From positions 1 to 64,000 of IMG/VR virus record IMGVR_UViG_3300032770_000005: a stretch of 64,000 bases of DNA; one strand, written 5' to 3'. Position 1 is the stretch's first letter, and the number at the start of each line of letters is the position of its first letter. Below the pieces are notes generated by a model that was not told the origin of the DNA, did not search any database, and saw only the letters and a list, made by a program, of their open reading frames with translations. Source of the DNA: a virus. Below are positions 8,790 through 60,206 of this stretch, piece by piece. A program made the translations under genes and the position numbers.

Positions 8790-10550
8790 ATGGGCACGCG
8801 AGCGTACAAGTACGTCATCCGGGCTCCGGTCTCGAACCGAGAGCTGATCGTCGAGCAGATGAAGGCGGCCCACCACTACCGCAACAAGCTCGTCGAGATC
8901 GAACGCATGCGCCGTCAGGCGCAGAGGGCGCTGCTGTCGTCGGCCACGCCGGTCGCCGAGGCCGAAGCCTCGCTCGCTTCGATCCTCCACGACCTCGAAG
9001 AGGCCGTGAAGGAGATCAAGGCCTACAAGCAGAACAAGCGCGCCGGCAAGGTTCCCGAGGAACTGCGCACGAAGGTCAGCATGCTGCGCGTGCGTCGGAG
9101 GGACGCGCTCGTCGCTCATCGACAGGCGCGGCTCGCCAGCAAGGAGACGCAGAAGACGGAGGCCATGACGGTCGACGCGCTCGCGGCCGACCAGCGCAAG
9201 GCGGCGCGGGCCTCGTGCGGCGTCTACTGGGGCACGTACCTGCTGGTCGAGAGCGCCGACCAGCAAGCGCGCAAGGACACGCCCCTCTACGACGGCGGCG
9301 AGCCGAGCGATCCTCGGTTCACCCCCTGGACGGGCGAAGGTCAGATCGGCGTCCAGCTCCAGCACGGCATGAGCGTCGGCGAGCTGTACGAGCCCAACAC
9401 GCTCGTTCAGCTCATCCCGCACGAACGCATCACGGTGAAGGGCCCGGCCACGAGCAAGCGTGCCGCCCGTCGCCAGTACTGCCATCTGCGGATGCGCATC
9501 CAGAGCAACGAGGCGCGCGATCCGATCTGGGCCGAGTGGCCCATGGTCATGCACCGACCGCTGCCGCCCGACGGCCGCGTCAAGCGGGTCATCGTTCAAC
9601 GGCGGCGTGTCGGCGCACACGAGGAGTGGAGCGTCGTCTTCTCCTGCGAGGCCGACTACCGCCGCATCGACAACGCCCGTGACGGCGTCGTGGGGCTCGA
9701 CATCGGGTGGCGCATGCGGCCCGATGGTCAGATCCGAGTCGGCGCCTGGGCCGGCTCCGACGGGCAGCGGGGCGAGGTCCTGCTCCCGCCGCGGCTGATC
9801 ACGGCGATGAGCAAGCCCGACGAGCTGCGCTCGGTCCGCGACAAGGCGTTCGACCGCGCCCGGGCTGAGCTGAAGCAGTGGATTCAGCAGGCCCCCTACG
9901 TCCCCACCTGGATGCGCGAGCGAGCGCAGTGGGTCGATCGCTGGAAGTCGCCGGGGCGTCTCGCCGGCATCGTCAGGACCTGGGCCGGGCTGCGCTTCGA
10001 GGGTGACCGGGAGATCTACGACCGCATGGAGGCCTGGCGCTACCACGACTTCCACCTCTGGAACTGGGAGTGTCATCAGCGCGAGACGTCAAAGCGGTGG
10101 CTGAAAGACTTCTATCGCGTGGTCGCCCGCGACCTCGCCCGCCGCTACGAGCGGCTCGTGATCGAAGAGTTCGACCTGCGACCCCTGGCGCGTAGGCCCA
10201 TGGTCGAGGACCACGACCCTACGCACCGGCTCACCAACGCCACGCGCCACCTCGTGGCGCCCTCGATGCTGCGCGAGTGCGCGATGCAGGCGTTCTCCAC
10301 CGTCGAGCAGGTCGACGCGACCAACACGACCCGCGCCTGCCGTCACTGCGGCACGATCAACTCCTGGAACGCCGCCGAGGAGGTCACCCACCAGTGCGTC
10401 TCGTGCGGCGCCGTCTGGGACCAGGACGACAACGCGGCAGACAACATCCGCATGCGCTCGGGCACGGGCAAGGTCGTCGGAGGAGAGAGGCCGACAGAGC
10501 GAGGAGGAAGCTGGGCACGGCGCAAGGCTGCTGCCAAGAACGCTGCTTGA
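8790..10550 (+). CDS. cas12m: Cas12m-like (type V-M/V-U1) effector A, 586 aa
   Basis: N-terminal QMKAAHHYRNKLVEIER and GVYWGTY...WTGEGQIGVQLQ blocks; MHRPLP; RuvC-I GLDIGWR, RuvC-II LVIEEFD, zinc finger CRHC..CVSC, RuvC-III WDQDDNAA; 36-nt repeats start at its stop codon. Confidence 0.75.
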   Translation: MGTRAYKYVIRAPVSNRELIVEQMKAAHHYRNKLVEIERMRRQAQRALLSSATPVAEAEASLASILHDLEEAVKEIKAYKQNKRAGKVPEELRTKVSMLRVRRRDALVAHRQARLASKETQKTEAMTVDALAADQRKAARASCGVYWGTYLLVESADQQARKDTPLYDGGEPSDPRFTPWTGEGQIGVQLQHGMSVGELYEPNTLVQLIPHERITVKGPATSKRAARRQYCHLRMRIQSNEARDPIWAEWPMVMHRPLPPDGRVKRVIVQRRRVGAHEEWSVVFSCEADYRRIDNARDGVVGLDIGWRMRPDGQIRVGAWAGSDGQRGEVLLPPRLITAMSKPDELRSVRDKAFDRARAELKQWIQQAPYVPTWMRERAQWVDRWKSPGRLAGIVRTWAGLRFEGDREIYDRMEAWRYHDFHLWNWECHQRETSKRWLKDFYRVVARDLARRYERLVIEEFDLRPLARRPMVEDHDPTHRLTNATRHLVAPSMLRECAMQAFSTVEQVDATNTTRACRHCGTINSWNAAEEVTHQCVSCGAVWDQDDNAADNIRMRSGTGKVVGGERPTERGGSWARRKAAAKNAA

Positions 10551-18859: not shown

Positions 18860-19031
18860 TCACCTCGGTCAACATCGGCGAGCGCGTGCGTGTCGGCAGG
18901 TCATGGTGGACGGTGATCGCCACGTTCGCGGGTGGCCAGATCGAAGTCTGCTGCACCGTTCCCACGCGCACCGGCCCAGCAGTCGAGACGCGCCGCATCG
19001 GGGTGGTGGAAGTCAGAGAGAGGCGGACCTG

Positions 19032-19277: not shown

Positions 19278-19320
19278 CGCGCCGCATCGGGGTGGCGGAA
19301 GTTCGTGAGAGGCGGACCTG

Positions 19321-19557
19321 ATGAGCGACCAGACGAAGCTGGAAGAGGACCATCGGTACGTTCGTGAGGAGCTGGAGAAGCTACGCGCAGCAATGAGGGC
19401 CAAGGACGTCGCTCCTAGGGAGTGGGCGTTCGGCCTTCTCGCGGAGGCCCTCGGGCTCGCCGGCGCCATGGATGACCTGGAGTGGCTGGATGAGACGTAT
19501 CGACTGATGTTCGAGCGTGTGCGGCAGAAGCTGAACGACCGAAAGAACATGTCGTGA
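19321..19557 (+). CDS. hypothetical protein, tandem duplicate 2
   Basis: HRYVREELEKLR...LAGAMDDLEWLDETYRLMF. Confidence 0.7.
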   Translation: MSDQTKLEEDHRYVREELEKLRAAMRAKDVAPREWAFGLLAEALGLAGAMDDLEWLDETYRLMFERVRQKLNDRKNMS

Positions 19558-25091: not shown

Positions 25092-25196
25092 GGTCGGGGT
25101 AGGAGTATGCAGCTCCGGGTCCCCGACTAGGTGACCGATGAACACCTGTCAGACACCCTACCAACTCGCCCTGCCCGTGTCCAGCGTGGGACGCCC

Positions 25197-29841: not shown

Positions 29842-29899
29842 GGTGTTGCCGCCACGGTGGCGGGCAAGGACGCGACTCGTACAACCGTAGAGAGACCTG

Positions 29900-31585
29900 A
29901 TGGGCTCCAGATACGAAATCCACATCGGGCCGCAGGGCTCTGGAGGCAGCGGGCCACCGCCAACCGTGGACGACCACTTCGCTCCCAAGTATCTCGTGGG
30001 CAACGTGCCAGCCGGTGATCCGAACGCCGCGCAGGCAGCGCCGTTCGTGTACATCCCCGATCCGGGCGACGGCAGCGGCATCGCTGCCGCGCTGGCCCAG
30101 CCGAACGGCCCTGGCGATGTCTGGATCAGACCCGGGACCTACGACCTCGGCGCGGGCACCACTCCGCCGCTGTTCGTGCCGACTGGTGTGCGCGTGCAGG
30201 GCTCGGGGCAGTCGACGATCGTGAAGGGCAAGACGACCGGCGACCAGGGCGTCTTCGTGCTGTCGCTCGGCTCGACGCTGTCGCACCTTCAGTGCGAGGT
30301 CACGGCATCGGACGCGGGGAGCGTCACGTCGATCGCACTGATCCGCTCGATCAGCGCGCTGCTCATCGAGGACGTGCAGGTCACGTTCGCGACCGCGGCT
30401 GGCGGTGTGCTGCGACAGGGCATTCGTCTGGAGGCGACAGCTGGCGCTCCGAAGCAGACGAACGTTCGGAACGTGAACATCGTGTGCACGACGACACCGA
30501 CTGGCATCGGCAGCCCGACGGCGTGTATGTGGGTCGATGGTACGCCGCCCACGCAGGCATACGGAGATCTCGATACCGTCTTCTGCCAGGGTGGTGACGT
30601 CGGCGTCATCAACAACGGCCTGTTCATCGGCGACAACATCGTCCTGTTGAACTGGTACCAGTACGGCATCTGGACCCAGCCCGGCTCCGGTGGCGCGCTC
30701 AGTCAGATCCTCAACGGGTACGTCATCGCGAACCCGGCTCCGTCCGCCAACCCCATAGGGGTCTACGTGCAAGCAGGCGGTCTGGCCGCTCGATCGGTCT
30801 CGCTTCAGCTCGGCGCGACTGCTGGAGGCGTCGGTGTGGCCATCGACGGGGCGAGCGGGCAGGTCAACTTCGGCACCATCGAGAACTGCACGATCAGCTG
30901 CGACACGATCGGCGTCAAGCTGGGCAGTTCCGGCGGCCTCGCGGTCAACGGCACTACGGTGCGCGACTGCGAGATCGTCACGGGTCAGTACGGCGTGCTG
31001 GGCGGCAACCTGTCGACCTCGCACATCACCGACAACGACATCACGTTGAACTCGGGTGGCAGCCAGTCTCCGGTCGCCGGCATCCAGCTCGTGAGCGGTG
31101 GCACACGCGACACGGTCGAGGACAACGCGATACAGGTGAACGACGGCGCCGGCGCAGCGTACGCCATCGACAGCGCCGCGGCGGAGGTCACGATCTCGGG
31201 CAACGCGATCATCGGCACCGGGGCGGGCGGGATTCACGTGCACGGCCAGCGCCACACGTGCGTCGGCAACGTCATCCAGGCCAACGCCATCGGGACCCCG
31301 TGGACTGCGATCCGTGTCGAGGCCGGTGCTGGCTGCACCGTCGTCGGCAACTCGTGCAGCAACTCGAACGCCTACACGCTTGCTCCCATCGTGATGGCGG
31401 CCGACCTCTGCACGATCGGAAACAACATCACGTCCGTGACGTCTGGTGCTCCGGGCGCGACGCCGGGCATCTCGATCAGCGGCAGCAACAACACCTGTCT
31501 CGGCAACACCTGCAACGGGTCGAACACGGTGCCGGTGTCCGACACAGGCCTCGGCAACGACGTCGCACACAACATCGGCGTGTAA
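29900..31585 (+). CDS. right-handed beta-helix (pectate-lyase-like) spike or depolymerase
   Basis: IAAAL...DVWIRPGTY...GVRVQGSG.STI opening, then repeated IxGN/VxGN strands. Confidence 0.75.
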   Translation: MGSRYEIHIGPQGSGGSGPPPTVDDHFAPKYLVGNVPAGDPNAAQAAPFVYIPDPGDGSGIAAALAQPNGPGDVWIRPGTYDLGAGTTPPLFVPTGVRVQGSGQSTIVKGKTTGDQGVFVLSLGSTLSHLQCEVTASDAGSVTSIALIRSISALLIEDVQVTFATAAGGVLRQGIRLEATAGAPKQTNVRNVNIVCTTTPTGIGSPTACMWVDGTPPTQAYGDLDTVFCQGGDVGVINNGLFIGDNIVLLNWYQYGIWTQPGSGGALSQILNGYVIANPAPSANPIGVYVQAGGLAARSVSLQLGATAGGVGVAIDGASGQVNFGTIENCTISCDTIGVKLGSSGGLAVNGTTVRDCEIVTGQYGVLGGNLSTSHITDNDITLNSGGSQSPVAGIQLVSGGTRDTVEDNAIQVNDGAGAAYAIDSAAAEVTISGNAIIGTGAGGIHVHGQRHTCVGNVIQANAIGTPWTAIRVEAGAGCTVVGNSCSNSNAYTLAPIVMAADLCTIGNNITSVTSGAPGATPGISISGSNNTCLGNTCNGSNTVPVSDTGLGNDVAHNIGV

Positions 31586-31588
31586 CCC

Positions 31589-33244
31589 ATGGCGATCAGA
31601 ACACCGGGTCTTCAGGTCAGATCTCAGTACCACGCGTACTGGGGTCAGTACGCCACGACGACGGCGCTGCCGAACGGGTCCGGAGCGCCACTGCCGGCGG
31701 CCGACTTCGATCTCGAAGCGGGTGATACGGCGTATGTCACTGGGGCGCCGGCTGGGCTCTACGAGTGCATTTCGGCGGGCACGCCTGGCGGCGGTGACGC
31801 GGTCTGGGCGGGCGTCGGCATCGGTCCCTGGTCGAGCGTGCTCTACGTGGACGGCGTGCGCGGCAACGACACGACCGGCCAGCGGGGCAACATGAGCTTG
31901 CCGTTTTTGACGCCGCAGGCCGCGCTCAACGCGATGCAGACTGGCGATGTGGTGACCCTGGCGCCGCAGACGTTCGTCCTGAACGCGCCTCTCACGGTGC
32001 CGGCGGCGGTCAGCTATGGGTCCTGCTACGGCTACCTCGGCGCGACATTCGGGCGGGCCAACTCGTTCTCCGATGGCATGCGCACCGTGCTCGTGGCGAA
32101 CGGCATCGCGGAGCAGTGGAATCTGAGCGCGACCGGCGCGGGCGTCGGGCTCTCGGCCTTCACGATCGGCGCGATGCTGCTCGGTCCGACAAACAACCAC
32201 TTCGTCTTCGCGACGACGCAGAACGTGCTGTGCGATGGGACGCTCTACGGAGCGCCGACGTCGACGTTCATGAACAATGGTCTCTGTCTCGACAGGATCC
32301 AGATCAACGACGCGCCGTCGCTGTCGGTCGTCTTCAAGTACGTCCGAACGGCCACGATTCAGGACTGCAACTTCGCTTCTGGTGCCATCTCTCTGACGGG
32401 TGGTGCCACGACCATCATGCGAACGTTCGCCCGTGCGCTGCCGTGTACGATCATCGGTGACACGACGGATCCGCTGTCGCCTACCAACTTTCCGCAGCTG
32501 TCCATTCTGATTGCCAGCATCGTCGGTGGATCTGGCGCCTCGGCGACGGTTACGTTCACCGGACAGAGCGCGCTCGTCGTCGACGACACGAGCAGCGTTG
32601 GTGGTCTACGTAGTCAGAACTTGGCGGTCAACGGTGCGTTCGTGCCGTCGATGTCGTGTACAGGCAACATTGGAGGCGCAGGCGCAAGCGGGGGGTTCCA
32701 GGCCGGCATCGACTTCAAGACGAGTGGACTACCGGATACGGCCACGGTGCTCACCTTCGACCTGCGGGGATCCAAGTGGATGGATCTTGGTGGCGCGGGC
32801 ATCGGCGGCGTACCTGCGATTCGCGCCATCGTCACGGGGGCTGCTCCGGCGAACTTCCAGACGATCAAGTGTGACGACACCACGGCGCTTCCGGGTATCC
32901 TCATCCTCGCTGACAGCAAGATTCACATCACCGGTCGCGGGGCCATCTGGCCGCAGATGGTGCTCCAGACCCCGGGGACGACGACCGCAGACGGCGACAT
33001 CATCCCGCCTGCGATCTCGGGCACCATCGACCTGCACGCCGGCGGCACCGTCGCGCAGACCTGGGTGGGCCTCGGCTACGCGGGCTTCGTTCGTGCGGGC
33101 GCGGCGCCCGACGTCGTGCTCCTCACGTCGAGCGCTCAGGGCGCCGACGCCGTCGTGAAGTCGCCTGCGACCACGGGCTTCACCACTGTCTCGACCGCGG
33201 TCGCGGGCAACACCGCAGCCAACTGGGAAGCGATCTGGAAATGA
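31589..33244 (+). CDS. putative spike/fibre protein
   Basis: QYHAYWGQY N-module; LYVDGVRGND..G....PFLTPQAAL...GDVV beta-helix opening. Confidence 0.65.
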   Translation: MAIRTPGLQVRSQYHAYWGQYATTTALPNGSGAPLPAADFDLEAGDTAYVTGAPAGLYECISAGTPGGGDAVWAGVGIGPWSSVLYVDGVRGNDTTGQRGNMSLPFLTPQAALNAMQTGDVVTLAPQTFVLNAPLTVPAAVSYGSCYGYLGATFGRANSFSDGMRTVLVANGIAEQWNLSATGAGVGLSAFTIGAMLLGPTNNHFVFATTQNVLCDGTLYGAPTSTFMNNGLCLDRIQINDAPSLSVVFKYVRTATIQDCNFASGAISLTGGATTIMRTFARALPCTIIGDTTDPLSPTNFPQLSILIASIVGGSGASATVTFTGQSALVVDDTSSVGGLRSQNLAVNGAFVPSMSCTGNIGGAGASGGFQAGIDFKTSGLPDTATVLTFDLRGSKWMDLGGAGIGGVPAIRAIVTGAAPANFQTIKCDDTTALPGILILADSKIHITGRGAIWPQMVLQTPGTTTADGDIIPPAISGTIDLHAGGTVAQTWVGLGYAGFVRAGAAPDVVLLTSSAQGADAVVKSPATTGFTTVSTAVAGNTAANWEAIWK

Positions 33245-33861
33245 CGCCCACGCACGATCTCTTGCTCGCGAGCCGTGGTTGGTGCGCAACCATCCGGGAG
33301 CGGCACGCGCTCGACCAGCTCGCGCACAAGGAAGGCCGCGCTCATCAGAAGGTCGACCCCGAGGCGCATCCCGACCTCGTGCCCGGCATCGGCGAGAACG
33401 GCCAGGTGACGGCGTGGGTCACGAACTGGATCGCCTTCCGCATCCGGCGCGTGGCCATCGAGCAGTCGCAGGCCAAGAGCAACGCCGAGCGCGTCCTCGC
33501 CGAGCTGCCGGAAGAGCACGCTGCACGCGTGCGTGACGAGTGGGCCATGCGCGACTACGGCGCGACGCACGAGGTCACGCGTGCCCGTATCGCCGCACTG
33601 AGGGCCAAGGTCGAGGTCGACCCGAACCGCACCGAGGCAGATCGCGCGGAGATCCTCAAGATGCTCGACGAGCAGCAGTCGTTTCTCACGCGGCACGAGA
33701 CGACGGCGGTCGGACGGGCAGCGCTGGAGCGCAGCGAGGCGGAGCAGACGCTCGCTGATGCGAATGCGTACCTGAGCGTCGCGCAGAACGACCTCATCCT
33801 GCACTACCGGACGCAGCTCGAAGGAGAGCTGAAGGCCGCCGGCGCGACGAGCACGACATGA
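33241..33861 (+). CDS. hypothetical coiled-coil protein
   Basis: ATGA coupling on both sides. Confidence 0.7.
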   Translation: MTPTHDLLLASRGWCATIRERHALDQLAHKEGRAHQKVDPEAHPDLVPGIGENGQVTAWVTNWIAFRIRRVAIEQSQAKSNAERVLAELPEEHAARVRDEWAMRDYGATHEVTRARIAALRAKVEVDPNRTEADRAEILKMLDEQQSFLTRHETTAVGRAALERSEAEQTLADANAYLSVAQNDLILHYRTQLEGELKAAGATSTT

Positions 33862-35582
33862 GCACTACGACGGCCGGCGCCTACCAGAAGATCATCCAGT
33901 ACCACGCGTACTGGGGCCAGTACGTGTGGAACGCGGGCGCCGTGAACACGTTCGACGGTCGGACTTCCGACGTCGGCTCGACCAATCTGCCGAATGCGCC
34001 GGGCAACCCGCTGGCAGCGCCGTTCTTCCAGAAGCTCCAGTCGGGCGACACGGCTTCGACGACGGAGGCGAGCGCGGACGGGAGTCAGATCGGCCTCTGG
34101 GTCTGCATCTACCCGGGCGCAGCGCCTGGGGACGGGCTCGCGGTGTGGGCCCGCAGCGACAACGCGCACACGATTCGCGATGCTCACGTCATCGTGGTGG
34201 GCCAGAGCGGATGGCTCGCGGGGCTGGCGAATGCCGGGCAGCCGCCGCTCCCGGCCAACAACCTCGACCTTAGCCTCGCGACGGGCGACGTCGCCTCGGT
34301 GACGTGCGACTACCTCGACGCGGGCGACGGCGCGGAGTTCGAGCAGGCGCTGCTCGCGGCCGCGGCGTCGGGCTCTCCGATCGACGTGCGCTTGCGCCCG
34401 TGCGACATCGAGCTGACGGGAACGACGACGGTGCCGGTCACGCTGCCCGCCGGCTGCCGGCTCATCGGCGCTGGCATGCACGTGAGCACGATCGCGAGTC
34501 GCTCGGCCGTCGGAGACGACCAGAGCACGCTGATCGTCGAGGCCGAGGCCGAGTGCATCGACGTCGGGTTCGTGAGCCCGAAGGTGACGGGTGGCGCGCC
34601 CGGCGGCACGAACACGTTCGTCGTGAGCGCCGGCGGCGCGTACACGCGGTTCAAGAACTGCTACTTCGAGCTGGATGGTGCAGCGCGAGTCGCTTACGTC
34701 GCGCTCCTCGATGCGACGGCGACCGCGCTCGTGATGGACTGCTCGTTCCTCGGTGAGGACCAGACGAGCAACGCGACTCCGGGCACCGCGGTCTGGATGG
34801 GAGATCCGAGCGGCAGCTTCGTCACGCCCGACCACGACTTCGTGGTGCGCGGGTGCACGTTCGACACGTGGAACCGGCTGCTGTTCGTGTACGAGGCGAC
34901 CCGGGGCTCGATGTACGACTGCGAGGGCATCGTCGTGCGTCCGAACGACGGCGCCATCGGCGTGACGTGGACGGGGACTGGCGGCGGTGGGGGCGATCCT
35001 ACGGTGCGGGTCGACAACGTGCGCGTCTACGTCTCGCCCACCGAGGCCGGCGGCGACACGGCCTACTACGGCATCCTGCTCACGCAGAACCGTGGCAGCG
35101 ACACGATGGAGGCGCTCCAGTTCAGCGGCGTGCAGGTCATCTTCCTCGCGGGTGGCACGACTGTTCCTCGGTACGGCTACAGCATCAACGCCGGCTCCAG
35201 CGGCGTGCTCCAGGGCATGACGCTCGTCGGCGGCTCGGTGTTCGGGCACACGATCGGCATCGCCGTGAACGCGAACGGCGGCGGCACGGTCGAGGACGGT
35301 TCGATCGCCGCCGTGGCGCTCGGGACCCCGACCACGCTGGGCGGCGTCCCGGGGACGCAGATTCGCCTTCAGCAAGGCGGCGGCCTACTGTCGACGTTCG
35401 GCGTCTACAACTGCGCCGCACGCAACGCGCCTGCCGGCGGCTACGGCATCGACCTCGAAGCGGCTACGCCGTCGCTGCTCAAGAACACGATCGTCGTCGG
35501 CAACAACATCGTGCCCTCGGGCGGCACGGCGTTCCGCGACCAAGGGACCGGCACCGAGGCCGGCCACAACATCGAGTCGTGA
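33858..35582 (+). CDS. putative beta-helix spike protein
   Basis: QYHAYWGQY N-module shared with 31589; DxGDG and terminal HNI motifs shared with 29900. Confidence 0.7.
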   Translation: MSTTTAGAYQKIIQYHAYWGQYVWNAGAVNTFDGRTSDVGSTNLPNAPGNPLAAPFFQKLQSGDTASTTEASADGSQIGLWVCIYPGAAPGDGLAVWARSDNAHTIRDAHVIVVGQSGWLAGLANAGQPPLPANNLDLSLATGDVASVTCDYLDAGDGAEFEQALLAAAASGSPIDVRLRPCDIELTGTTTVPVTLPAGCRLIGAGMHVSTIASRSAVGDDQSTLIVEAEAECIDVGFVSPKVTGGAPGGTNTFVVSAGGAYTRFKNCYFELDGAARVAYVALLDATATALVMDCSFLGEDQTSNATPGTAVWMGDPSGSFVTPDHDFVVRGCTFDTWNRLLFVYEATRGSMYDCEGIVVRPNDGAIGVTWTGTGGGGGDPTVRVDNVRVYVSPTEAGGDTAYYGILLTQNRGSDTMEALQFSGVQVIFLAGGTTVPRYGYSINAGSSGVLQGMTLVGGSVFGHTIGIAVNANGGGTVEDGSIAAVALGTPTTLGGVPGTQIRLQQGGGLLSTFGVYNCAARNAPAGGYGIDLEAATPSLLKNTIVVGNNIVPSGGTAFRDQGTGTEAGHNIES

Positions 35583-35908
35583 TGCGCAGCCGACTCAGCG
35601 CCGCGGAGCGCGCAGCCACCTTGCGCCCGGTGCTCTTGAGCGGCATCGGCCGCGGCGGCGGCTACGTCGACCCGAAGACGCTCGCGGAAGTCGCAGAGCT
35701 GCTCGGCACGACCGAGGAAGACATCAGCGTGCTCCGCTACGGCCGCGCCTCGACGGCCGTGATGCTGATGTCGTTCACGCAGCAGCTCGATCGGGAACGC
35801 GGGCCGAACAAGAGCGCGACGCTCGTGCTCCAACGGTTCGCAGGCAAGCCGGTCACGGTGCGCGGCGACGTCGTCTGCTTTCCCGCAGGCGCTCCGTTCA
35901 GCTGCTGA
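35582..35908 (+). CDS. hypothetical protein
   Basis: TGATG coupling. Confidence 0.55.
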   Translation: MRSRLSAAERAATLRPVLLSGIGRGGGYVDPKTLAEVAELLGTTEEDISVLRYGRASTAVMLMSFTQQLDRERGPNKSATLVLQRFAGKPVTVRGDVVCFPAGAPFSC

Positions 35909-35910
35909 AT

Positions 35911-35944
35911 GTGAGTTGCGTGTGTTGCGTATGTAGCGTACGCT
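35911..35944. promoter_or_regulatory. three tandem 9-bp units plus a -10-like hexamer
   Basis: GTGAGTTGC GTGTGTTGC GTATGTAGC, then TACGCT 6 nt before ATG 35951. Confidence 0.6.
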
Positions 35945-35950
35945 CCGCGC

Positions 35951-36838
35951 ATGATGACTGGTGTCCCGATGCGCTCCGAGAGGTGGTTGGTGGCGTGCGG
36001 CGCGTTCTGCGCGGCAGCGTGCTGGGTGGCTGGGTGCGCGCCGACGCCTGACGTTCTGCTCGACGTGTCGCCCGCGGCAGACGCTGCGCCGACCGGCGAT
36101 GCCGGCTTCGTGGTCGACGCAGCGGATGCGGGCATGCTCGATGTCGACGGGGCCGTCGCGGGCGACGCGGATGCGCTCGGTGCGATCGACGCTGCCACGA
36201 GCGATGGTGACGGCGGCGCGACTGACGCCGCGAGTGCGAGCGATGCCGGCGTCGACGCGTCGTCGCCGGCGGTCGACGCCGCGAGTGCACTGTGCGGCAA
36301 CGGCTACATCGACCCGGGCGAGGTCTGTGACCCGGGCGAGGTCTATCCGGATGGCGGCACCATGCCGATCACCGACTCGCCGTGGTGCCACGGGTGCACT
36401 GTGATCGGATGTCCTGGCGGCGGCATCGATCCCGTCACGAACTGGTGCGTGGTGGTCGCCGAGGGCATGGCTCCAGATCCGTCCACGATCAGGCCCGCAA
36501 CGCGATGGCCGATGGTCTACTGGGACACCGCTGCCGAGCTGACGGGGCTGCTCACGGCGATCGCGGCGATTGGTCCGGACGAGCAGGGCCAGGTCGCGCT
36601 CAGGCGATTCGGCGGCGTGACGGGCACCTGGTACATGTACCGAGAGGACGGGACGTCGTTCGTTCCTACCGACATGCCCGCGTGGGTCGAGCGCTTTCCG
36701 CTGGCAGATCCGTCCTACTGCGCCGAGCTGCACCAGGCGGCTTCCGGCGCCCTGAGCCTCCAGCAGACGACGTGCGGGCGCGCCACTGACGTGAGCGCGC
36801 AGTTCGTGTTCTCGCCGCCGCCCGGCATCGCTCATTGA
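35951..36838 (+). CDS. lipoprotein with Myxococcus-type Cys-rich repeat
   Basis: Lipobox VAGC, DA(G/S) linker repeats, LCGNGYIDPGEVCDPG. Confidence 0.7.
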   Translation: MMTGVPMRSERWLVACGAFCAAACWVAGCAPTPDVLLDVSPAADAAPTGDAGFVVDAADAGMLDVDGAVAGDADALGAIDAATSDGDGGATDAASASDAGVDASSPAVDAASALCGNGYIDPGEVCDPGEVYPDGGTMPITDSPWCHGCTVIGCPGGGIDPVTNWCVVVAEGMAPDPSTIRPATRWPMVYWDTAAELTGLLTAIAAIGPDEQGQVALRRFGGVTGTWYMYREDGTSFVPTDMPAWVERFPLADPSYCAELHQAASGALSLQQTTCGRATDVSAQFVFSPPPGIAH

Positions 36839-36857
36839 AAAACAGAGAGGCCTGTGC

Positions 36858-37898
36858 GGCGCGAGGCCAGTGCGGGGGCTTCGTGCCTGCGACTACTGCG
36901 CCGCATGCCGCGCTGTGGTCCCAGCCGCCGCCGAGCGAGCCAGTGCGGGGGCCTCATGCCCGCGACATGCCAGCGCAGTGGCTTGGTGCCTGCGACGCTT
37001 GTCTCCTCGGCCGTCGGTGCCGTCAGTCGCGAGGCCAGCGCAGGGGCCTGATGCCTGCGGCCGTGTTGCGAAGCCTGCGCAGAGCCGAGTGCCTGCGACT
37101 GGCGCGTGACGAGATCGGCTCTACCTTAGGCGGTAAGCCGCGAGGCCGGCGCGGGGGCTTGGTGCTCGCGACGTGCGGTCCGAGCACGCACCGGCAACGC
37201 CTGTGTTTGCAGGGCCAGCGCGGGGGCCGAGTGCCCGCGACCCCACTTCTGCGATCCTTCGAGGCCAGCGCGAGGGCATCGTGCTCGCGACCGCGGATCC
37301 GTGCTCGCGACCGCGGATCGCGGTGAGGATCAACGAGCCCGGCCGCAGGGGGCATCGTGCCGTCGCGAAGCCAGCGCGGGGGCCGAGTGCTCGCGACGAG
37401 GTCGTGGGGTGCCCGTGCTCGTGGTCATGAAGCCAGGCCGGCGCGAGGGCTTAGTGCTTGCGACGAGAACTGTGAGCACCACGTCGGCTCAGCAGAAGGC
37501 CAGCGCGGGGGCCGTGTGCCTGCGACGGCGAGCCGGGCGCGCACCGACAGTGGACCGTCATCCGTCGCGAGAGGCCAGCGCGGGGGCCGAGTGCCCGCGA
37601 TTGTCTCGTCGCGGTCATGTTGTTGCGACGACATCATCGTTGCAGGGCCAGCGCGGGGGCCTGATGCCTGCGACTGGGCCGTTGCAGCGCGGTGCGAGTG
37701 CCTGTGTCGCGAGGCCAGCGCGAGGGCTTCGTGCTCGCGACGCAGGGTTCGCCTCCAGAAGCGCGCGGCGCGTGCTCCTCCTCGTCGCGAGGCCAGCGCA
37801 GGGGCCTGGTGCCTGCGACTGGAGATCTGCCATTGTCGTTGCCGGCGCCGTCGATGAGGCCGGAAATCACGCCAGCGCGAGGGTCTCGTGCTCGCGAC
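36858..37898 (+). CRISPR. orphan array of repeat family B, about 16 heterogeneous repeats
   Basis: Repeat 3' ends at 36893, 36966, 36996, 37061, 37099, 37172, 37241, 37291, 37397, 37464, 37526, 37601, 37674, 37741, 37819 and 37898; core GCCAGCGC(G/A)(G/A)GGGCNNN(G/A)TGC(C/T)(C/T)GCGAC. Confidence 0.88.
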
Positions 37899-37956
37899 AT
37901 CACAGGAACGCGACCACGGCTTGGCGCCGAGGGGCCGGCCCGGTACGATGCGAGGC

Positions 37957-38727
37957 ATGACGACCCGCCGAGGCATGCTCTGGAAGACGCCGTGGAAGAG
38001 AGATCGCAACAAGGCGCCCCTGCCTCCCGGCGGCGAGATGGCCTTCTTCCAGAACTTCGACTCCGGCGCGAACAGTTCCGCGTACAAGAGCGTCGGCAAC
38101 ACGATGCTCGGGCAGTCGCTGCCGTTCTGGTTCGGCGCAGTGAGCGCGCAGCAGAACACGCTCACCAACTTCTTCGGCGCGGTCCCCGGCGCCGGCTTCG
38201 GCTTCTCAGCAGGGCTGCTCGGTGGCACGGCTGGCCTCGTCTCGGGCAATGCTGAGGCGGCTCCGAGCCTCGTCTCCAACGGCCAGCTCGCGGTCAGGCC
38301 TGCCGCCGGCACGATCGCGGTCGTCGCCATCCTGGCGATCGTCGAGCAGGCCGGCGCGGGCTACCGGCTCACGACGTACTTCTGTCGGCTCGGGCAGCCG
38401 ATCAAGCAGACCGTGACGCCCTACGCGCCGCCCGGCGCGACGCAGCTCGTTCTGTCCGCGAGCACCGGGCTGATCCACGGCGCAGCCGGCGGAGCCGGCG
38501 TGCCGACCGCCGCCCAGGTCCAGTCGTGGTTCCAGCAGCTGAAGCTGAACCGCGAGGTCGGGGAGATCCCCGGCCTCACGTCGCACCTCTACTCCGCTAC
38601 GAGCGTCTATCCGCTCGTGCCGGCCGTGCTACCGAACGGAGCGGGCGGCCAGAACATGGACTACACGGTGATCGCTGGCGCGCCGACACCGACCAACGTG
38701 CTGCTCGCCGTGTCGTTCCCCTGGTGA
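37957..38727 (+). CDS. hypothetical (possibly structural) protein between the two orphan arrays
   Basis: TTGGCG-17-TACGAT promoter at 37921-37949; Gly/Ala/Pro-rich ORF. Confidence 0.7.
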   Translation: MTTRRGMLWKTPWKRDRNKAPLPPGGEMAFFQNFDSGANSSAYKSVGNTMLGQSLPFWFGAVSAQQNTLTNFFGAVPGAGFGFSAGLLGGTAGLVSGNAEAAPSLVSNGQLAVRPAAGTIAVVAILAIVEQAGAGYRLTTYFCRLGQPIKQTVTPYAPPGATQLVLSASTGLIHGAAGGAGVPTAAQVQSWFQQLKLNREVGEIPGLTSHLYSATSVYPLVPAVLPNGAGGQNMDYTVIAGAPTPTNVLLAVSFPW

Positions 38728-38758
38728 ACGTGTCGGACACGTTGTAGGCTGCTCGTCC

Positions 38759-39205
38759 ATGAGCAACGACGCCTTCAACCGCGGCATCTTCAGCGAGCAG
38801 AAGGGCGTGCTCGACGACGCCTTCCAGAACGCGACGGGCGTCGAGCACGCGACCGGCGATCTCAAGGAGGGCATCAGAGAGAACGTCGAGATGGGCGGCG
38901 TGCGCCTCATGAGCGACTGCAACTACTGCGGGCTCCAGTGGCGCGGCATCGTGAAGTGGCCCGAGATCGCCGGCTTCTTCACCGGTCAGCAGGTGCCGGG
39001 CACCCAAGCGATCAGACCCGGCGTGGCCAGCGCCTTCGGTTGCAGAAAATGCAACAGCGTCAACAAGTTCCTGATGCCGTGGGCGGACATCAACCGGTAC
39101 GTGGCGATGGGCGTGGAGATGGGTGCGCTGCCGCGAGACATCTACAAGGTCCGCGAGCAGATCATGGCGCAGCGCGCCGCGCAGAGATCTGCACGCGGCA
39201 GATGA
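38759..39205 (+). CDS. hypothetical protein with two CxxC motifs
   Basis: CNYCG...CRKC; preceded by the palindrome AACGTGTCGGACACGTT. Confidence 0.7.
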   Translation: MSNDAFNRGIFSEQKGVLDDAFQNATGVEHATGDLKEGIRENVEMGGVRLMSDCNYCGLQWRGIVKWPEIAGFFTGQQVPGTQAIRPGVASAFGCRKCNSVNKFLMPWADINRYVAMGVEMGALPRDIYKVREQIMAQRAAQRSARGR

Positions 39206-40118
39206 CCGACATGCCTGCGCAGGGCCTCGTGCCTGCGACGCACAGCGCCGTGCATCGGCCTCAATCGCGAGGCCAGCGCGAGGGCCTCATGCTCGCGACG
39301 ACCCACGCGTGCTCTACAGGCAGGGGCCGAGGCCTGCGACCAAGAAAAGCGAGGCGCATCCGAAAGTCTGTCCGCATGCAGAAGTCTGTCCGCATGCAGA
39401 AGTCCGTCCGCAGATCGGCAGTCGCCAGGCCAGCGCGGGGGCTTCGTGCCTGCGACTTGCAGTGGGAGATCATGTCCGCCGTTGCATGCCAGCGCAGGGG
39501 CTACCTGCCTGCGACGCCCAGGCTCCGCGCGTGTTTGAGGCCAGCACGAGGGCCTCGTGCTCGTGACTCCCGTGCGGCCAGTTCTTGCTCGCTCGCGAAC
39601 CGTCCGCTTGACGACGGACGCCCCAAGGCCAGCGCGGGGGCCGAGTGCCTGCGACTTGCAGTGTGAGCAGTGTGAGATCAGATGGCGGCGCGCATGTAGA
39701 GAGCGTGGCGGCAAACACGGCCGGCGAGGCCGGCCCGTGACCGAGCGAGCGGCAGCGAACGGTAGCTCATTGCATCTTCTTCCGGGGACGATGGGTGGCC
39801 GCGCTGTCGTGGCTGCGACGGAGTTGCTGCTCCGTGGTAGTCCGGCGAGATCACGGGTCGGCCTCACCGACCGACTGCCGATCCTGCGACGCAGATCTGA
39901 GAACGACGCGCATCACGCCAGCGCGAGGGCCGCATGCTCGCGACAAGCGCTCGAACTCTACTAAGCCAGCGCAGGGGCCGCATGCCTGCGACGAGCACGC
40001 TCGCGATGACGCTCGCCGTCGCTCGGCTCGAAAGGCCATCGCGGGGCATCGTGCCCGCGACATGTGGACGGACGAGTTTCTTTTACAAGGCCAGCGCAGG
40101 GGCCCGTGTACCTGCGAC
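39205..40118 (+). CRISPR. orphan array of repeat family B, about 11 clear repeats plus eroded remnants
   Basis: Repeat 3' ends at 39239, 39299, 39340, 39456, 39515, 39567, 39655, 39944, 39992, 40061 and 40118. Confidence 0.82.
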
Positions 40119-56921: not shown

Positions 56922-57352
56922 TGAACGCGCCCGACATGACGTCCCTCTCGCGCCGAGATCGCGCCGCCATCTTGCTGGCGTTGACGTGGATTCGCGTCAC
57001 GCCTGGTCGCGGTGGCGGTCCGCTGCTGGCGCGGGAGCAGGCGTGCGAAGCGCTGCGGATGGGAGGCAAGGGGGCGAAGGCGATCGCTGAGGCCGTGGCC
57101 AGCGCGAACTCGGAACTGGCGTCCGAGATGGCACGCAACGGCGACTTGTCATCGGAGGCACGCTATCTGGACGTGCTCGCCACGAACCGGCGGCTGGTCC
57201 GCGCCCGCCTCGCGCTCTTCCTGCGGACCGTCGTGCGCGTTGACGACGACGATTACGGATGTTGGGACGGAGACCGCGGTGGATGGTTGCCGCGGCCGTA
57301 TCATGCTCTCTGGGAATCCGCACCACCGCATCGAAAGAAGGTCAGCCAATGA
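56921..57352 (+). CDS. hypothetical protein translationally coupled to Cas12m-like effector B
   Basis: TGATG start; ATGA overlap with 57349. Confidence 0.6.
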   Translation: MNAPDMTSLSRRDRAAILLALTWIRVTPGRGGGPLLAREQACEALRMGGKGAKAIAEAVASANSELASEMARNGDLSSEARYLDVLATNRRLVRARLALFLRTVVRVDDDDYGCWDGDRGGWLPRPYHALWESAPPHRKKVSQ

Positions 57353-59214
57353 GCGTCAAGGTCTATCGCTATGGTTTGGGCGCACCGGTCGAGAACGAAG
57401 CGTTGGTGCGGGCGCAGCTGCGTGCGGCGCATCACTACCGCAACGCGCTCGTCGAGGTCGAGCGGTGGCGCCGCGCCGAGCACCGACGACTGCTCGGTGC
57501 GCATCCGGGCGTCGGGCCGGCGGAGGCCGCGGTGACGCTCGCCCATGCGGTGCTCGACGAGGCGTTGACCGCCGTCAAGCGCGTGAAGGGGGCGAGTCGC
57601 AGCGGTGCGGTGCCGTCGGAGTTGCGCGCTGCGCTCCATGTGGCGCGCTCCCGCAAGGCCGATGCCGTGCGAGCGTTCCGAGAGGCGCGAGCGGCGCTGC
57701 GCGGAGACGAAGCGCTGAACGCCGAGCGGGCGCGCGTCGACGAGACGGCTGCTCAGCGGCGGAAGGCCCTCCGAGCGTCCTGCGGCGTCTACTGGGGCAC
57801 GTACCTCGGGATCGAAGCGGCGGATGAGCAGTCGCGCAAGCAGCCGCTCTACGACGGCGCGGAGCCGCTCGACCCGCGGTTCATGCCGTGGACGGGCGAA
57901 GGACGTGTCGGCGTTCAGTTCCAGGGCGGCCTCGCGGTCGACCAGGTGGTGGACGACACGCGCATGAGGATCGAGGACGCGCAGCCGGTGCGCGTCTCAA
58001 AGCTCGGGCGCGTGCTGCCTCAGCGTGATCCGTCGAGCAAGCGATCCGCCCTCCGCCGCTACGCGACGCTCGCGCTGCGCGTCGGGTCCGACGACGATCG
58101 TGGGCCCGTGTGGGCTCGCTGGCCGCTCGTGCTGCACCGGCCGCTCCCCGAGGGCGGCGTCCTCAAGTGGGCACACGTCTCGCTCCGGCGGATCGGTCCG
58201 CGCGAGGAGTGGTCGCTGCTTTGCACCGTCGAGAGCGAGGACCGTCGCCCGCTGCCGCCGCTCGAAGCCGGAGCGGTCGCGGTCGATCTCGGGTGGCGGC
58301 AGATGGACGACGGCTCCGTGCGCGTCGCCTACTGGCTGGGCCAGGACGGGCAGGAGGGCGAACTGCGGCTCTCGCCGCGCGACCTCTCCGGGCTCTCGAA
58401 GGCGGACGAGGTGCGGGCTGTCCGCGACCGCGCCTTCGATGCCGCGCGCCGCGAGCTGCGTGAGTGGCTCGCCACGAACCCTGGTCGACCGTGGCTGAGG
58501 ACGAGGTGCGAGTGGATCGACCGGTGGAAGGCGCCGGGCCGGCTCGCCGCGACGGTCGTGCAGTGGCGCGCGGACGGCTTCCGCTTCGAGGGCGACAAGG
58601 AGATCTTCGTGAAGCTCGAAGCGTGGCGCAAGCAGGACAAGCACCTCTGGTGCTGGGAGACGTCGCAGCGCACGGGCGCGCTGCGAGCGAGGAAGGATCT
58701 GTACCGCCGCTTCGCGTGTGACCTGGCGCGTCGCTACCGCACGCTCGTGATCGAAGACTTCGACATGCGCGAGGTGTCGCGCCGACCTGCCGCGGACGAA
58801 GCGGCCGGCAACGCTGCCGCGCGGTCGATGAGGCAGCGGGCAGCGCCGAGCGAGGCTCGTCTCGCGCTCGTGCACGCGTTCCGCGACGTGTCGAAGCAGG
58901 ACCCCGCCGACACGACCCACGACTGCCACTCGTGCGGGTCGCGCGAGCAGTTCGATCAGGCGGCCGAGCTGGTCCATCGCTGCGGAGCGTGCGGCACCGA
59001 GTGGGACCAGGACCGGAACGCGGCTATCAACCTGATGCGTCGCGCGAGCGATGCCGGTGCTCTCGGAGAAGGCGGGGTCGCTCGCGAGCCGCGAGAGGCC
59101 AACGATTTCGAGGCGAAGCCCGCGGGCCGATGGGCGCGAGCGAAGGCGAAGAAGGCCGCTCGCATCGCGCAACAGGCGACCGCTCGCGAAGCGGCGCCCA
59201 GTGACGCGGAATGA
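57349..59214 (+). CDS. cas12m: Cas12m-like (type V-M/V-U1) effector B, 621 aa
   Basis: QLRAAHHYRNALVEVER, GVYWGTY, WTGEGRVGVQFQ, LHRPLP, RuvC-I AVDLGWR, RuvC-II LVIEDFD, CHSC..CGAC, RuvC-III WDQDRNAA; the array starts after a 19-nt gap. Confidence 0.82.
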   Translation: MSVKVYRYGLGAPVENEALVRAQLRAAHHYRNALVEVERWRRAEHRRLLGAHPGVGPAEAAVTLAHAVLDEALTAVKRVKGASRSGAVPSELRAALHVARSRKADAVRAFREARAALRGDEALNAERARVDETAAQRRKALRASCGVYWGTYLGIEAADEQSRKQPLYDGAEPLDPRFMPWTGEGRVGVQFQGGLAVDQVVDDTRMRIEDAQPVRVSKLGRVLPQRDPSSKRSALRRYATLALRVGSDDDRGPVWARWPLVLHRPLPEGGVLKWAHVSLRRIGPREEWSLLCTVESEDRRPLPPLEAGAVAVDLGWRQMDDGSVRVAYWLGQDGQEGELRLSPRDLSGLSKADEVRAVRDRAFDAARRELREWLATNPGRPWLRTRCEWIDRWKAPGRLAATVVQWRADGFRFEGDKEIFVKLEAWRKQDKHLWCWETSQRTGALRARKDLYRRFACDLARRYRTLVIEDFDMREVSRRPAADEAAGNAAARSMRQRAAPSEARLALVHAFRDVSKQDPADTTHDCHSCGSREQFDQAAELVHRCGACGTEWDQDRNAAINLMRRASDAGALGEGGVAREPREANDFEAKPAGRWARAKAKKAARIAQQATAREAAPSDAE

Positions 59215-59233
59215 TGGCGGATGCGAGCGGTCA

Positions 59234-60206
59234 GTTGCAGGGCCAGCGCGGGGGCCGAGTGCCTGCGACGCGTCCGCGAGCCCAACGACGCGATCCGCCT
59301 GCGCTGGCGTTGCAGGGCCAGCGCGGGGGCCGAGTGCCTGCGACGGGCGATCTCCGCGGCGTTCCGTCGCCGCTAAATCAGCGGGTTGCAGGGCCAGCGC
59401 GGGGGCCGAGTGCCTGCGACACGCCTGCGGACCTTCGAGTTCGGCTGCATGTCGCGAAGTTGCAGGGCCAGCGCGGGGGCCGAGTGCCTGCGACGTTGAG
59501 CAGATTGAAGGTGTTCACCCGCTTCGTCGCGGTTGCAGGGCCAGCGCGGGGGCCGAGTGCCTGCGACGTGGAGGCGGCGAAGACGAGCCGCCGGGGAATC
59601 TTTAGTTTGCAGGGCCAGCGCAGGGGCCTGGTGCTTGCGACTTCTGTCCGTGCTGCGGGCACAAGCCTGCGGAGTAGAGGTGCGAGGCCGGCGCGGGGGC
59701 CTGGTGCTCGCGACCCTCGGTAGCAATCGACCTTCGCGAGCGCGAGCGCCCAGTTGCATGGCCAGCGCGGGGGCCGAGTGCCCGCGACACCTCGGTGATG
59801 TAGCGCTTAGCGCCCGCGTCGCAGGGCCAGCGCGGGGGCCGAGTACCTGCGACCTCTCCAACTGCTCTTGCTCGGTCACGGTGATCTCCTGTTGCAGGGC
59901 CAGCGCGGGGGCCGTGTGCCTGCGACAAACCCCGCGTCGATGAGATCGTACTCGCCCACTCCGGTCGCGAAGCCAGCGCAGGGGCTTTGTGCCTGCGACG
60001 CCAGGCTCGCGAAGGTTGGGCGTGTCGATAGGCCGGCGCGGGGGCCTTGTGCCTGCGACCGTAGGTAGTCCTTCGTGACGCCCAGCATCTGGGCGACGTT
60101 GCAGGGCCAGCGCGAGGGCTTGGTGCTCGCGACAGCCGCTTCACGATCTCGAAGACCCTCTTCTCGTTGTGTGGCGAGGCCTGCGCAGGGGCCTTGTGCC
60201 TGCGAC
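59234..60206 (+). CRISPR. CRISPR array of repeat family B: 14 repeats, 13 spacers (24-40 nt)
   Basis: GTTGCAGGGCCAGCGCGGGGGCCGAGTGCCTGCGAC exact at 59234, 59309, 59385, 59459 and 59532; variants at 59605, 59679, 59753, 59818, 59891, 59964, 60024, 60098 and 60171. Confidence 0.97.

What the first reader, a model, noticed from the sequence alone, without database searches (positions are those of the whole stretch)
36858..37898. Orphan array with almost no two identical repeats, yet a hairpin kept by compensatory changes
Seen: about 16 family-B repeats differ widely, but the stem arms co-vary: CGCGGG/CCCGCG, CGCAGG/CCTGCG, CGCGAG/CTCGCG and G-U wobble versions. Variation concentrates in the 3-nt loop (CGA, TTC, CTC, ATC, CTG, TTA) and the first 8 nt or so. 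Spacers range from 0-3 nt to about 40 nt, with one longer interval containing a 20-bp slippage duplication (37281-37319). Inference: this looks like selection for structure rather than decay. Diversified repeats could limit spacer loss by recombination while still feeding effector B in trans. Standard CRISPR finders may miss it.
Basis: partly seen in the sequence, partly recalled or inferred. Interest (0 to 1): 0.8.

Follow-up and report, generated by a model that had tools for sequence, protein, structure and literature searches.

The report
Cas-less Cas12m array with diverged, structure-keeping repeats
A 1-kb stretch of a 153-kb virus is a real CRISPR array for the virus's own small DNA-binding Cas12m protein, and although all 16 of its repeats differ, paired mutations have kept the RNA fold that Cas12m grips, so the array has stayed under selection rather than simply decaying.

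Summary
Window 36858-37898 holds 16 copies of a 36-nt repeat, and no two are identical.

**What it is**
- It is the repeat of the type V-M effector Cas12m at 57259-59214 (PDB 23vw_A, E 1e-67).
- It is one of 12 loci, 88 copies in all, in a complete 152.9-kb virus record. The record has two Cas12m genes and no Cas1 or Cas2.

**Structure**
- The six lower stem pairs are paired in 98.6% of cells genome-wide and in 89 of 90 cells in this array.
- Four pairs carry double changes. Covariation survives a tree-aware null: 0/1000 genome-wide, 0/2000 in this array.
- G-U pairs outnumber mismatches 39 to 6. On the opposite strand 41 cells would be mismatches, so the fold is in the RNA.
- Conserved and variable positions match the solved Cas12m2 crRNA scaffold. 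The "hairpin" is its pseudoknot helix.

**Erosion**
- The array also shows erosion: three units with guides under 17 nt, broken repeat remnants and a 20-bp duplication.

**Interpretation**
- Best reading (0.6): an old array that has stopped growing, read through from the operon and still serving Cas12m in trans.
- Selection for diversity as such is not shown. Neighbouring repeats are no more different than random pairs.
- No targets and no expression data were obtained.
- The scan has noted a Cas12m phage with dispersed repeats before, on other DNA (e1-3265627).

The parts
36858..37898 (+). Cas-less type V-M CRISPR array with 16 diverged 36-nt repeats. Repeat starts: 36858, 36931, 36961, 37026, 37065, 37137, 37206, 37256, 37362, 37429, 37491, 37566, 37639, 37706, 37784, 37863.
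   Evidence: Repeat and model searches. There is no codon-position GC periodicity here, unlike the flanking genes. No Rfam family matches.
37280..37319 (+). Perfect 20-bp tandem duplication. It copies the 3' arm of repeat 37256-37291 plus the first 8 nt of its spacer.
   Evidence: family D7; period 20, 2.0 copies, 100%.
37325..37361 (+). Broken repeat remnant. The 5' arm and loop are kept. The 3' arm is lost and the remnant is fused to the next repeat.
   Evidence: Read from the sequence. It falls below the model threshold. The reading is inference.
37680..37705 (+). Repeat remnant with internal deletions, lying inside the 'spacer' between repeats 37639 and 37706.
   Evidence: Read from the sequence. 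The reading is inference.
35951..36838 (+). Upstream co-oriented gene (295 aa, no known family). Its stop codon lies 19 nt before the first repeat.
   Evidence: GC3 of 0.83. No Pfam, NCBIfam or PHROG hit. In L028/L029 its homologue (40% identity) is followed directly by a cas12m gene.
37888..38727 (+). Downstream co-oriented gene. The open frame starts at 37888, but the likely start is near 37975.
   Evidence: GC3 of 0.89-0.90. The peptide MLWKTPWK used places a Met near 37975.
39205..40118 (+). Second cas-less cluster of the same repeat family (10 copies), starting at the stop codon of gene 38759-39205.
57259..59214 (+). Cas12m effector B. The open frame starts at 57259. Alignments to relatives begin at residue 28-37, so the probable start is 57349.
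   Evidence: PDB 23vw_A Cas12m, E 1.2e-67, and Cas12m2, E 3e-27. Pfam Cas12f1-like_TNB domain. 45% identical to effector A.
59234..60206 (+). Effector-adjacent array of the same family with 14 repeats. The first five are identical. The other nine are diverged but keep spacers of mostly 37-38 nt.
8790..10550 (+). Cas12m effector A, a paralogue with its own repeat family.
   Evidence: Family-A repeats at 10553, 11127 and 11214.

Best explanation
The locus is a genuine type V-M (Cas12m) CRISPR array that has no effector gene of its own. It sits inside a plus-strand operon of a complete 153-kb virus.

**Shown**
- Its repeats belong to the family that lies directly downstream of the virus's Cas12m-B gene, and downstream of Cas12m homologues in unrelated contigs.
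- Despite heavy sequence divergence, the repeats keep every element of the Cas12m crRNA scaffold:
  - a 6-bp helix (columns 14-19 with 29-34), kept by compensatory changes;
  - an invariant GCC/GG(C) second helix;
  - G13, A35 and C36.
- The 5' 7-8 nt and the loop drift freely.

**Inferred**
- The array is transcribed by read-through from the upstream gene.
- Cas12m-B, made 20 kb away, binds each scaffold and cuts upstream of it. It uses the 17-20 nt that follow as a guide for PAM-dependent DNA binding that blocks transcription or replication of a target, a competing element or the host.
- The array is old and no longer grows. It has no leader-side run of identical repeats, and the virus has no Cas1 or Cas2.
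- Units flanked by similar repeats were probably lost by misalignment deletion, leaving a set of mutually dissimilar repeats.
- About 11-12 of the 16 units still look competent. The rest are eroding.
For: **The system**
- Effector identity: (E 1.2e-67 to Cas12m).
- The same repeat family lies within about 100-180 nt downstream of Cas12m homologues in L011, L016, L017, L026 and L014.
- There are 88 copies in 12 loci of the record. The record is complete and lacks Cas1 and Cas2.

**Covariation**
- 98.6% of cells pair and 4 of 6 pairs carry double changes. None of 500 shuffles reaches this, and partners slid by 1-3 columns collapse to 32-61% paired.
- Tree-aware null: pairing 0/1000 and mutual information 1/1000 genome-wide. 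For this array alone, 0/2000 and 8/2000.
- Independent replication in 34 distinct repeats from other contigs: 97.4% paired, 0/500.

**Strand and mode of selection**
- 39 G-U cells against 6 mismatches. On the other strand there would be 41 mismatches.
- The six pair-breaking events are all singletons. Fifteen G-U states were resolved to Watson-Crick pairs.

**Fit to the solved scaffold**
- In Cas12m2 the 5' 7 nt are disordered. A 6-bp pseudoknot helix joins -22..-17 to -8..-3. A G.A pair and the terminal AC are recognised. A 17-bp heteroduplex is enough (PMC10442227).
- Here, parsimony changes per column are 7-22 in columns 1-8 and 6-21 in the loop, against 0-3 at most scaffold columns; exceptions are column 12 (12), column 26 (10) and the coupled stem columns 17, 18, 30 and 31 (5-8).

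**Second helix (columns 9-11 with 20-22)**
- 100% pairable.
- A9-U22 variants occur in L009, L014 and L024.
- One pair is flipped in family A.

**Context**
- The array is non-coding and lies between co-oriented genes, 19 nt after a stop codon.
- 13 of 16 units have at least 17 nt before the next repeat.
- The effector-adjacent array also carries nine diverged repeats with spacers of mostly 37-38 nt.
Against: - There is no expression or processing evidence.
- No protospacer was found in the virus itself, in phage or plasmid collections, in IMG/VR (three 24-nt seeds) or in a related virus.
- Three units have guides under 17 nt. At least two repeat remnants and a 20-bp duplication show ongoing erosion.
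- New pair-breaking events (6) are not much rarer than new wobble events (9). Selection is seen in their fate, not in their origin.
- Two units have lost A35 or C36, and one has a stem mismatch.
- The degenerate 5' 8 nt might impair processing. The Cas12m cleavage mechanism is not understood (PMC10442227, PMC11013384).
- No promoter-like site was found, and read-through is inferred only.
- Selection during past divergence does not prove function today.
Confidence: 0.6

Rival explanations
1. Dead relic. The array once served a Cas12m gene that lay beside it. It is now a pseudo-array drifting to extinction. The preserved fold reflects selection in the past, not present use.
For: - In L028/L029 the homologue of the upstream gene is followed directly by a cas12m gene. 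An effector may therefore have been lost from this very site.
- The 107-kb array still carries a remnant of a cas12m C-terminus plus a homologous leader. This shows that effector loss or partial duplication happens in this genome.
- Spacers are irregular, with remnants and a slippage duplication.
- No targets were found.
Against: - 89 of 90 lower-stem cells still pair, while the loop and 5' end are near saturation. A relic old enough to scramble the loops should have broken many stems.
- All six mismatches genome-wide are singletons.
- A cognate effector is present in the same genome.
Confidence: 0.2
2. Guide-independent RNA punctuation. The repeats are Cas12m binding and cleavage sites that cut or stabilise polycistronic viral transcripts. 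The 'spacers' are incidental.
For: - Clusters start 0-21 nt after co-oriented stop codons at 5 loci, and 9 of 12 loci are co-oriented with the upstream gene.
- Units with almost no spacer keep intact folds.
- Single repeats flank whole genes in family A (10553 / 11127) and in L028.
- Five solitary copies are scattered in the complete virus G001, which also has a Cas12m.
Against: - Most intervals keep the CRISPR-like 26-43 nt length, and all spacers are unique.
- The co-orientation count is not significant on its own (9 of 12).
- Short-spacer units can be recent deletions.
Confidence: 0.12
3. Actively selected diversification. Repeat sequences were driven apart because non-identical repeats protect a fixed guide set from recombinational loss.
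For: - All 15 ungapped repeats are distinct. The mean longest identical run between neighbours is about 9 nt.
- The same diversification with fully compensated stems occurs in a relative: CGTGCG/CGCACG, CGCGTG/CACGCG and CGCGGC/GCCGCG in L028.
- The link between repeat mutation and spacer retention is proposed in the literature (PMC12839519).
Against: - Neighbours are no more different than random pairs (P 0.32 here, and not significant in any cluster).
- Passive survival of units with dissimilar repeats explains the same pattern without selection for diversity.
Confidence: 0.06
4. RNA anti-CRISPR decoys (Racr-like). The repeats soak up a Cas12m belonging to the host or to a rival element.
For: Viruses are known to carry solitary repeat units as decoys (PMC10651486).
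Against: - The virus itself encodes the cognate effector next to the same repeats. Decoys would therefore inhibit its own system.
- Most units carry guide-length spacers.
Confidence: 0.02

Closest known systems
Type V-M CRISPR-Cas12m loci (MmCas12m, Cas12m2, GoCas12m; PMC10442227, PMC11013384)
   Same: - Effector family.
- 36-nt repeat with the same scaffold geometry: a dispensable 5' end, a 6-bp pseudoknot helix, a second stacked helix and a terminal AC.
- Guide 3' of the repeat, no Cas1 or Cas2 nearby, effector gene immediately upstream of its array.
   Different: - The described loci have one homogeneous array beside the effector.
- Here one effector's repeat family is spread over 12 loci with 88 copies, most of them mutually different.
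- The flagged array has no effector beside it.
Myxophage MV-1 type V-M locus (bioRxiv 10.64898/2026.09.14.751636)
   Same: A virus-encoded Cas12m with an adjacent array and no adaptation genes. No protospacers were found.
   Different: - That report lists one consensus repeat and eight spacers, found with CRISPRCasTyper.
- It does not mention dispersed or diverged arrays.
- Whether MV-1 is this virus or a relative could not be established.
Virus-borne mini-arrays and orphan arrays served in trans (own knowledge: Medvedeva et al. 2019; Faure et al. 2019)
   Same: Cas-less arrays on a mobile element that rely on an effector encoded elsewhere.
   Different: Those arrays usually have near-identical repeats and one or two spacers that match related viruses. 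Here there are 16 diverged repeats and no matches.
Degenerate terminal repeats, and the link between repeat mutation and spacer retention (PMC12839519, PMC11472070)
   Same: Mutated repeats accumulate where deletion is rare. Dissimilar repeats are thought to resist misalignment deletion.
   Different: There it concerns one or two terminal repeats. Here essentially every repeat of an array is diverged, and it is compensated in the stem.
RNA anti-CRISPRs (Racr), viral solitary repeat units (PMC10651486)
   Same: Repeat-derived structured RNAs encoded by viruses outside canonical cas loci.
   Different: Racrs mimic the host's repeats and lack guides. Here the cognate effector is viral and most units keep guide-length spacers.

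Membership tests
Type V-M (Cas12m) CRISPR array | A cognate Cas12m effector is present | tested here: met
   Window 57259-59214 matches Cas12m structures (23vw_A, E 1.2e-67; Cas12m2 8hhl, E 2.6e-27). It carries the TNB domain. It lies 20 kb from the flagged array, not beside it.
Type V-M (Cas12m) CRISPR array | The repeat family is the one associated with that effector clade | tested here: met
   The same family follows Cas12m-B at 59234. It also follows Cas12m homologues (36-43% identity) in L011, L016, L017, L026 and L014.
Type V-M (Cas12m) CRISPR array | The crRNA scaffold architecture of the solved complexes: a disordered 5' end, a 6-bp pseudoknot helix, a stacked stem, a G.A pair and a terminal AC | tested here: met
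   Covariation and conservation profile, compared with the description in PMC10442227. The register differs by one nucleotide in the loop.
Type V-M (Cas12m) CRISPR array | Regularly spaced unique spacers of guide length | tested here: inconclusive
   All spacers are unique. 10 of 15 intervals are 26-43 nt. Three are under 17 nt and two are 70-75 nt and contain remnants.
Type V-M (Cas12m) CRISPR array | Transcription, Cas12m-dependent processing and loading of the units | not testable with these tools
No promoter-like site was found.
RNA anti-CRISPR (Racr) / solitary repeat unit | Mimics the repeat of a CRISPR system that the element itself does not encode, and lacks a guide | tested here: not met
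   The virus encodes the cognate Cas12m. Most units carry 26-43-nt spacers.
REP/BIME-like dispersed palindromes | Dispersed imperfect palindromes without unit spacing, acting at either strand | tested here: not met
   Copies within each cluster share one orientation, and the common start-to-start period is 62-79 nt. The fold is strand-specific: 39 G-U cells against 41 mismatches on the other strand.
Regulatory CRISPR-like RNAs (crlRNA / CreA type) | Degenerate repeats flanking a guide with a partial, PAM-flanked match to a promoter of the same genome | tested here: not met
   Seed matches of 11-14 nt in the virus's own genome barely exceed the reversed-sequence control (37 against 30; 12 against 6). 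None has a TTN flank, and none of 13 nt or more comes from this array. Host targets could not be searched.

The most novel reading that the evidence does not exclude
This virus, and at least three other Cas12m viruses, keep a hard-wired library of dozens of guide units. The units are scattered behind genes and expressed by read-through. Their repeats have been pushed apart in sequence while the pseudoknot is held by compensatory change. This makes the library resistant to recombinational loss. It would be a natural counterpart of engineered non-repetitive guide arrays, and a CRISPR system that evolves like a gene family rather than by adaptation.
Probability: 0.2. Interest if true: 0.8.

Novelty: new variant of a known kind. 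Interest (0 to 1): 0.6.

Why it matters
- It would show that a CRISPR array can persist long enough for nearly every repeat to diverge while staying usable. That gives a natural map of which scaffold positions Cas12m tolerates changing, which is useful for designing non-repetitive multiplex guide arrays for this compact DNA binder.
- Virus-borne Cas12m systems may be much larger than CRISPR finders report. Here there are 88 repeat units in 12 loci, against the single array a tandem-repeat search picks up.
- It raises the question of how arrays are built and kept in a virus that has no adaptation genes.

Tried and rejected
- **5'-3' terminal helix.** ViennaRNA prefers a helix between columns 1-8 and 29-36 for the canonical repeat. 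It is rejected: only 66% of cells pair, no better than shuffles (157/500).
- **Upper hairpin pairs.** C-A mismatches occur at 22-26 in 11 distinct repeats with no compensation.
- **Coding.** The region is not protein-coding. There is no GC3 periodicity in any frame.
- **Rfam.** No CRISPR-DR or other family matches.
- **Spacer targets.** None was found:
  - own genome;
  - phage and plasmid collections;
  - three 24-nt seeds in IMG/VR;
  - the related virus G001;
  - PAM-flanked partial self-matches.
- **Close relatives for an orthologous comparison.** The two flanking genes have no close relatives in viral contigs. The upstream gene has only 35-42% identical homologues.
- **Neighbour over-dispersion.** Not found.
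- **Expression evidence.** Relatives cannot be drawn for a virus record.
- **Import from other lineages.** This is unlikely. Many variants keep this genome's own 5' octamer (GTYGCRRG), whereas other lineages have different octamers.

Full report
**What is there**

Window 36858-37898 contains 16 copies of a 36-nt repeat. Spacing between successive starts is mostly 62-79 nt. The 28-nt core has no chance matches in shuffled sequence. The 15 ungapped copies all differ.

The region shows no codon-position GC periodicity, whereas both flanking plus-strand genes do, with GC3 of 0.83-0.90. No Rfam family matches. Tandem Repeats Finder reported the regular array at 59233-59568 but not this one.

The 20-bp duplication is at 37280-37319. 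The very short (2-3 nt, 14 nt) and long (70-75 nt) intervals are also real.

**Which system it belongs to**

- The window is the first 64 kb of a single 152,857-bp contig. It is held as a complete, linear virus record.
- The ORF at 57259-59214 is a Cas12m: PDB 23vw_A at E 1.2e-67, Cas12m2 at E 3e-27, and the Pfam TNB domain.
- An array of the same repeat family starts 19 nt after its stop codon.
- A paralogue at 8790-10550, 45% identical, has a different repeat family.
- Cas1 and Cas2 are absent from the record.
- A pattern scan of metagenome and genome contigs found the same repeat family in 20 other stretches. Where enough DNA is held, it lies just downstream of a Cas12m homologue and forms ordinary homogeneous arrays: L011, L016, L017, L026 and L014.

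This is therefore the cognate repeat of a Cas12m clade.

**Distribution in the genome**

A covariance model built from 79 copies finds 88 copies in 12 loci on both strands.

- Two arrays have a run of identical repeats at their upstream end: 59234-59567 and the upstream end of the minus-strand array at 105824-107209. Both have diverged repeats downstream.
- The flagged array has no homogeneous part.
- The 107-kb array is preceded by a remnant of the Cas12m-B C-terminus (residues 592-616, 80% identity) and a homologous leader.
- In contigs L028/L029 a 40% identical homologue of the gene upstream of the flagged array is followed directly by a cas12m gene, 47% identical to B.

Cas-less arrays in this lineage thus plausibly arise by loss or partial duplication of effector-array units. 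For the flagged array this is inference. No cas12m remnant lies next to it.

**Covariation**

Results for the helix between columns 14-19 and 29-34:

| Data set | Cells paired | Control |
|---|---|---|
| 70 distinct genomic repeats | 98.6%; 4 of 6 pairs with double changes | 0/500 shuffles; partners slid 1-3 columns give 32-61% |
| Flagged array alone, six pairs, tree-aware null | 0.989 against 0.879+-0.033 | 0/2000; mutual information 8/2000 |

- The tree-aware null uses a FastTree tree and Fitch changes per column, re-dealt to branches by length. The tree was built from all columns, which is the conservative choice.
- Rare double changes include A-U at pair 15-33 (39532), C-G at 17-31 (103809), A-U at 19-29 (72853), U-A at 17-31 (L024) and C-G at 19-29 (L026).
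- In L028 three neighbouring units have entirely different, fully complementary arms.

**Strand and mode of selection**

In the six pairs there are 375 Watson-Crick cells, 39 G-U cells and 6 mismatches. Read on the opposite strand, there would be 41 mismatches. The fold is therefore selected in the RNA of the strand that runs with cas12m.

On the tree, Watson-Crick pairs gave 9 wobble and 6 mismatch events. All mismatches are singletons. Fifteen wobble states moved on to Watson-Crick pairs, and 3 branches carry double changes. This is the usual picture of compensatory evolution with mildly deleterious or terminal mismatches. It also shows that erosion is ongoing.

**Fit to the solved Cas12m2 scaffold**

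Omura et al. (PMC10442227) describe a 36-nt scaffold with these features:

- the 5' 7 nt are disordered;
- a flipped-out A and a G.A pair precede a 6-bp pseudoknot helix between -22..-17 and -8..-3;
- a stem stacks on that helix;
- the terminal AC is recognised;
- 17 bp of guide suffice.

With a one-nucleotide shift, our columns map as follows: A12, G13 paired with A35, helix 14-19/29-34, and C36.

Parsimony changes per column are 7-22 in columns 1-8 and 6-21 in the loop, against 0-3 at most scaffold columns; the exceptions are column 12 (12 changes), column 26 (10) and the coupled stem columns 17, 18, 30 and 31 (5-8). In the flagged array, minor-allele density is 0.37 and 0.44 against 0.02-0.07 at the unpaired scaffold columns, and 0.11-0.14 in the two coupled helix arms.

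Columns 9-11 (GCC) and 20-22 (GGC) are invariant or nearly so, and complementary. Three observations support this second, crossing helix:

- an A9-U22 variant in L009, L014 and L024;
- G-U in three local copies;
- a flipped pair in family A.

C-A occurs at 22-26 in 11 repeats. The minimum-free-energy 5'-3' helix is also unsupported. The "hairpin" is thus the pseudoknot helix of the Cas12m crRNA.

**How competent the flagged array is**

I scored four criteria: scaffold columns intact, six pairs formed, AC present, and at least 17 nt before the next repeat.

- About 11-12 of the 16 units pass.
- 36931, 37026 and 37206 have too little guide.
- 36961 has a stem mismatch.
- 37065 carries an indel.
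- 37026 and 37566 have lost A35 or C36.
- Remnants at about 37325-37361 and 37680-37705, and the 20-bp duplication, show decay by deletion and slippage.

**Is diversity itself selected?**

Adjacent repeats are not more different than random pairs, here or in any other cluster. Many variants keep this genome's own 5' octamer, so they were not imported from the other lineages sampled.

Published analyses propose that mutated repeats lower misalignment deletion and so outlast others (PMC12839519; PMC11472070). Passive survival of dissimilar units in an array that no longer grows explains "no two alike". No selection for diversity is needed.

**Function**

No targets were found. No expression data could be obtained.

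The array starts 19 nt after a co-oriented stop codon. It is followed by co-oriented genes with no terminator-like or promoter-like site of note. Read-through transcription is therefore the simplest assumption.

The guide-independent alternative is that the repeats punctuate operon transcripts. It is kept as a rival because single repeats flank whole genes in family A, in L028 and in G001.

**Novelty**

Type V-M systems are known, and a Cas12m myxophage with one array has been reported.

What I could not find described is the scale of within-genome repeat divergence with compensated pseudoknot stems in cas-less arrays.

I rate it a new variant of a known kind, with interest 0.6.

Noticed in passing
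L003:6210-6410 (-), i.e. contig 107210-107410: The 20-repeat minus-strand array is preceded by a remnant of the Cas12m-B C-terminus (residues 592-616, 80% identity) and a leader homologous to the one at window 59130-59233. An effector-array junction was duplicated, or its effector was deleted.
   Followed up: partly
window 10553-11246: Family-A repeats bracket a whole gene. One repeat comes right after the Cas12m-A stop (10553-10585). Then comes a 179-aa ORF (10572-11111), then two more repeats (11127, 11214). The 'spacer' here is a gene.
   Followed up: partly
L028:70-3450 and L029: In a relative, the order is a DnaJ-domain gene (in L029), a homologue of window gene 35951-36838, a 601-aa Cas12m, and then single repeats on either side of a 165-aa ORF. 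Each repeat has a different but fully complementary stem.
   Followed up: partly
L006:5891-5926 and G001 (IMGVR_UViG_3300035208_005676, 103.5 kb): A complete virus with a Cas12m (36% identity, G001 62840-64594, minus strand) has five solitary copies of the repeat on the plus strand. The copy in L006 appears to lie inside an open reading frame.
   Followed up: no
contig 96132-96232 (L002:13132-13232): Two repeat units on opposite strands converge and share the same 29 nt of intervening DNA. One stretch could therefore be read as a guide from both strands.
   Followed up: no
window 1-323: At the very start of the contig there are 13.5 tandem copies of a 24-bp unit (91% matches). This may be a genome-end structure.
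   Followed up: no
window 18982-19513: A 289-bp unit repeated 1.8 times at 82% identity, inside the plus-strand gene block.
   Followed up: no
window 25131-39205: A 14-kb plus-strand operon of large proteins has no Pfam, NCBIfam or PHROG match, apart from one NosD beta-helix domain (29900-31585). Of three other large ORFs tested elsewhere in the contig, only a helicase (contig 75184-77478) matched a phage family.
   Followed up: partly
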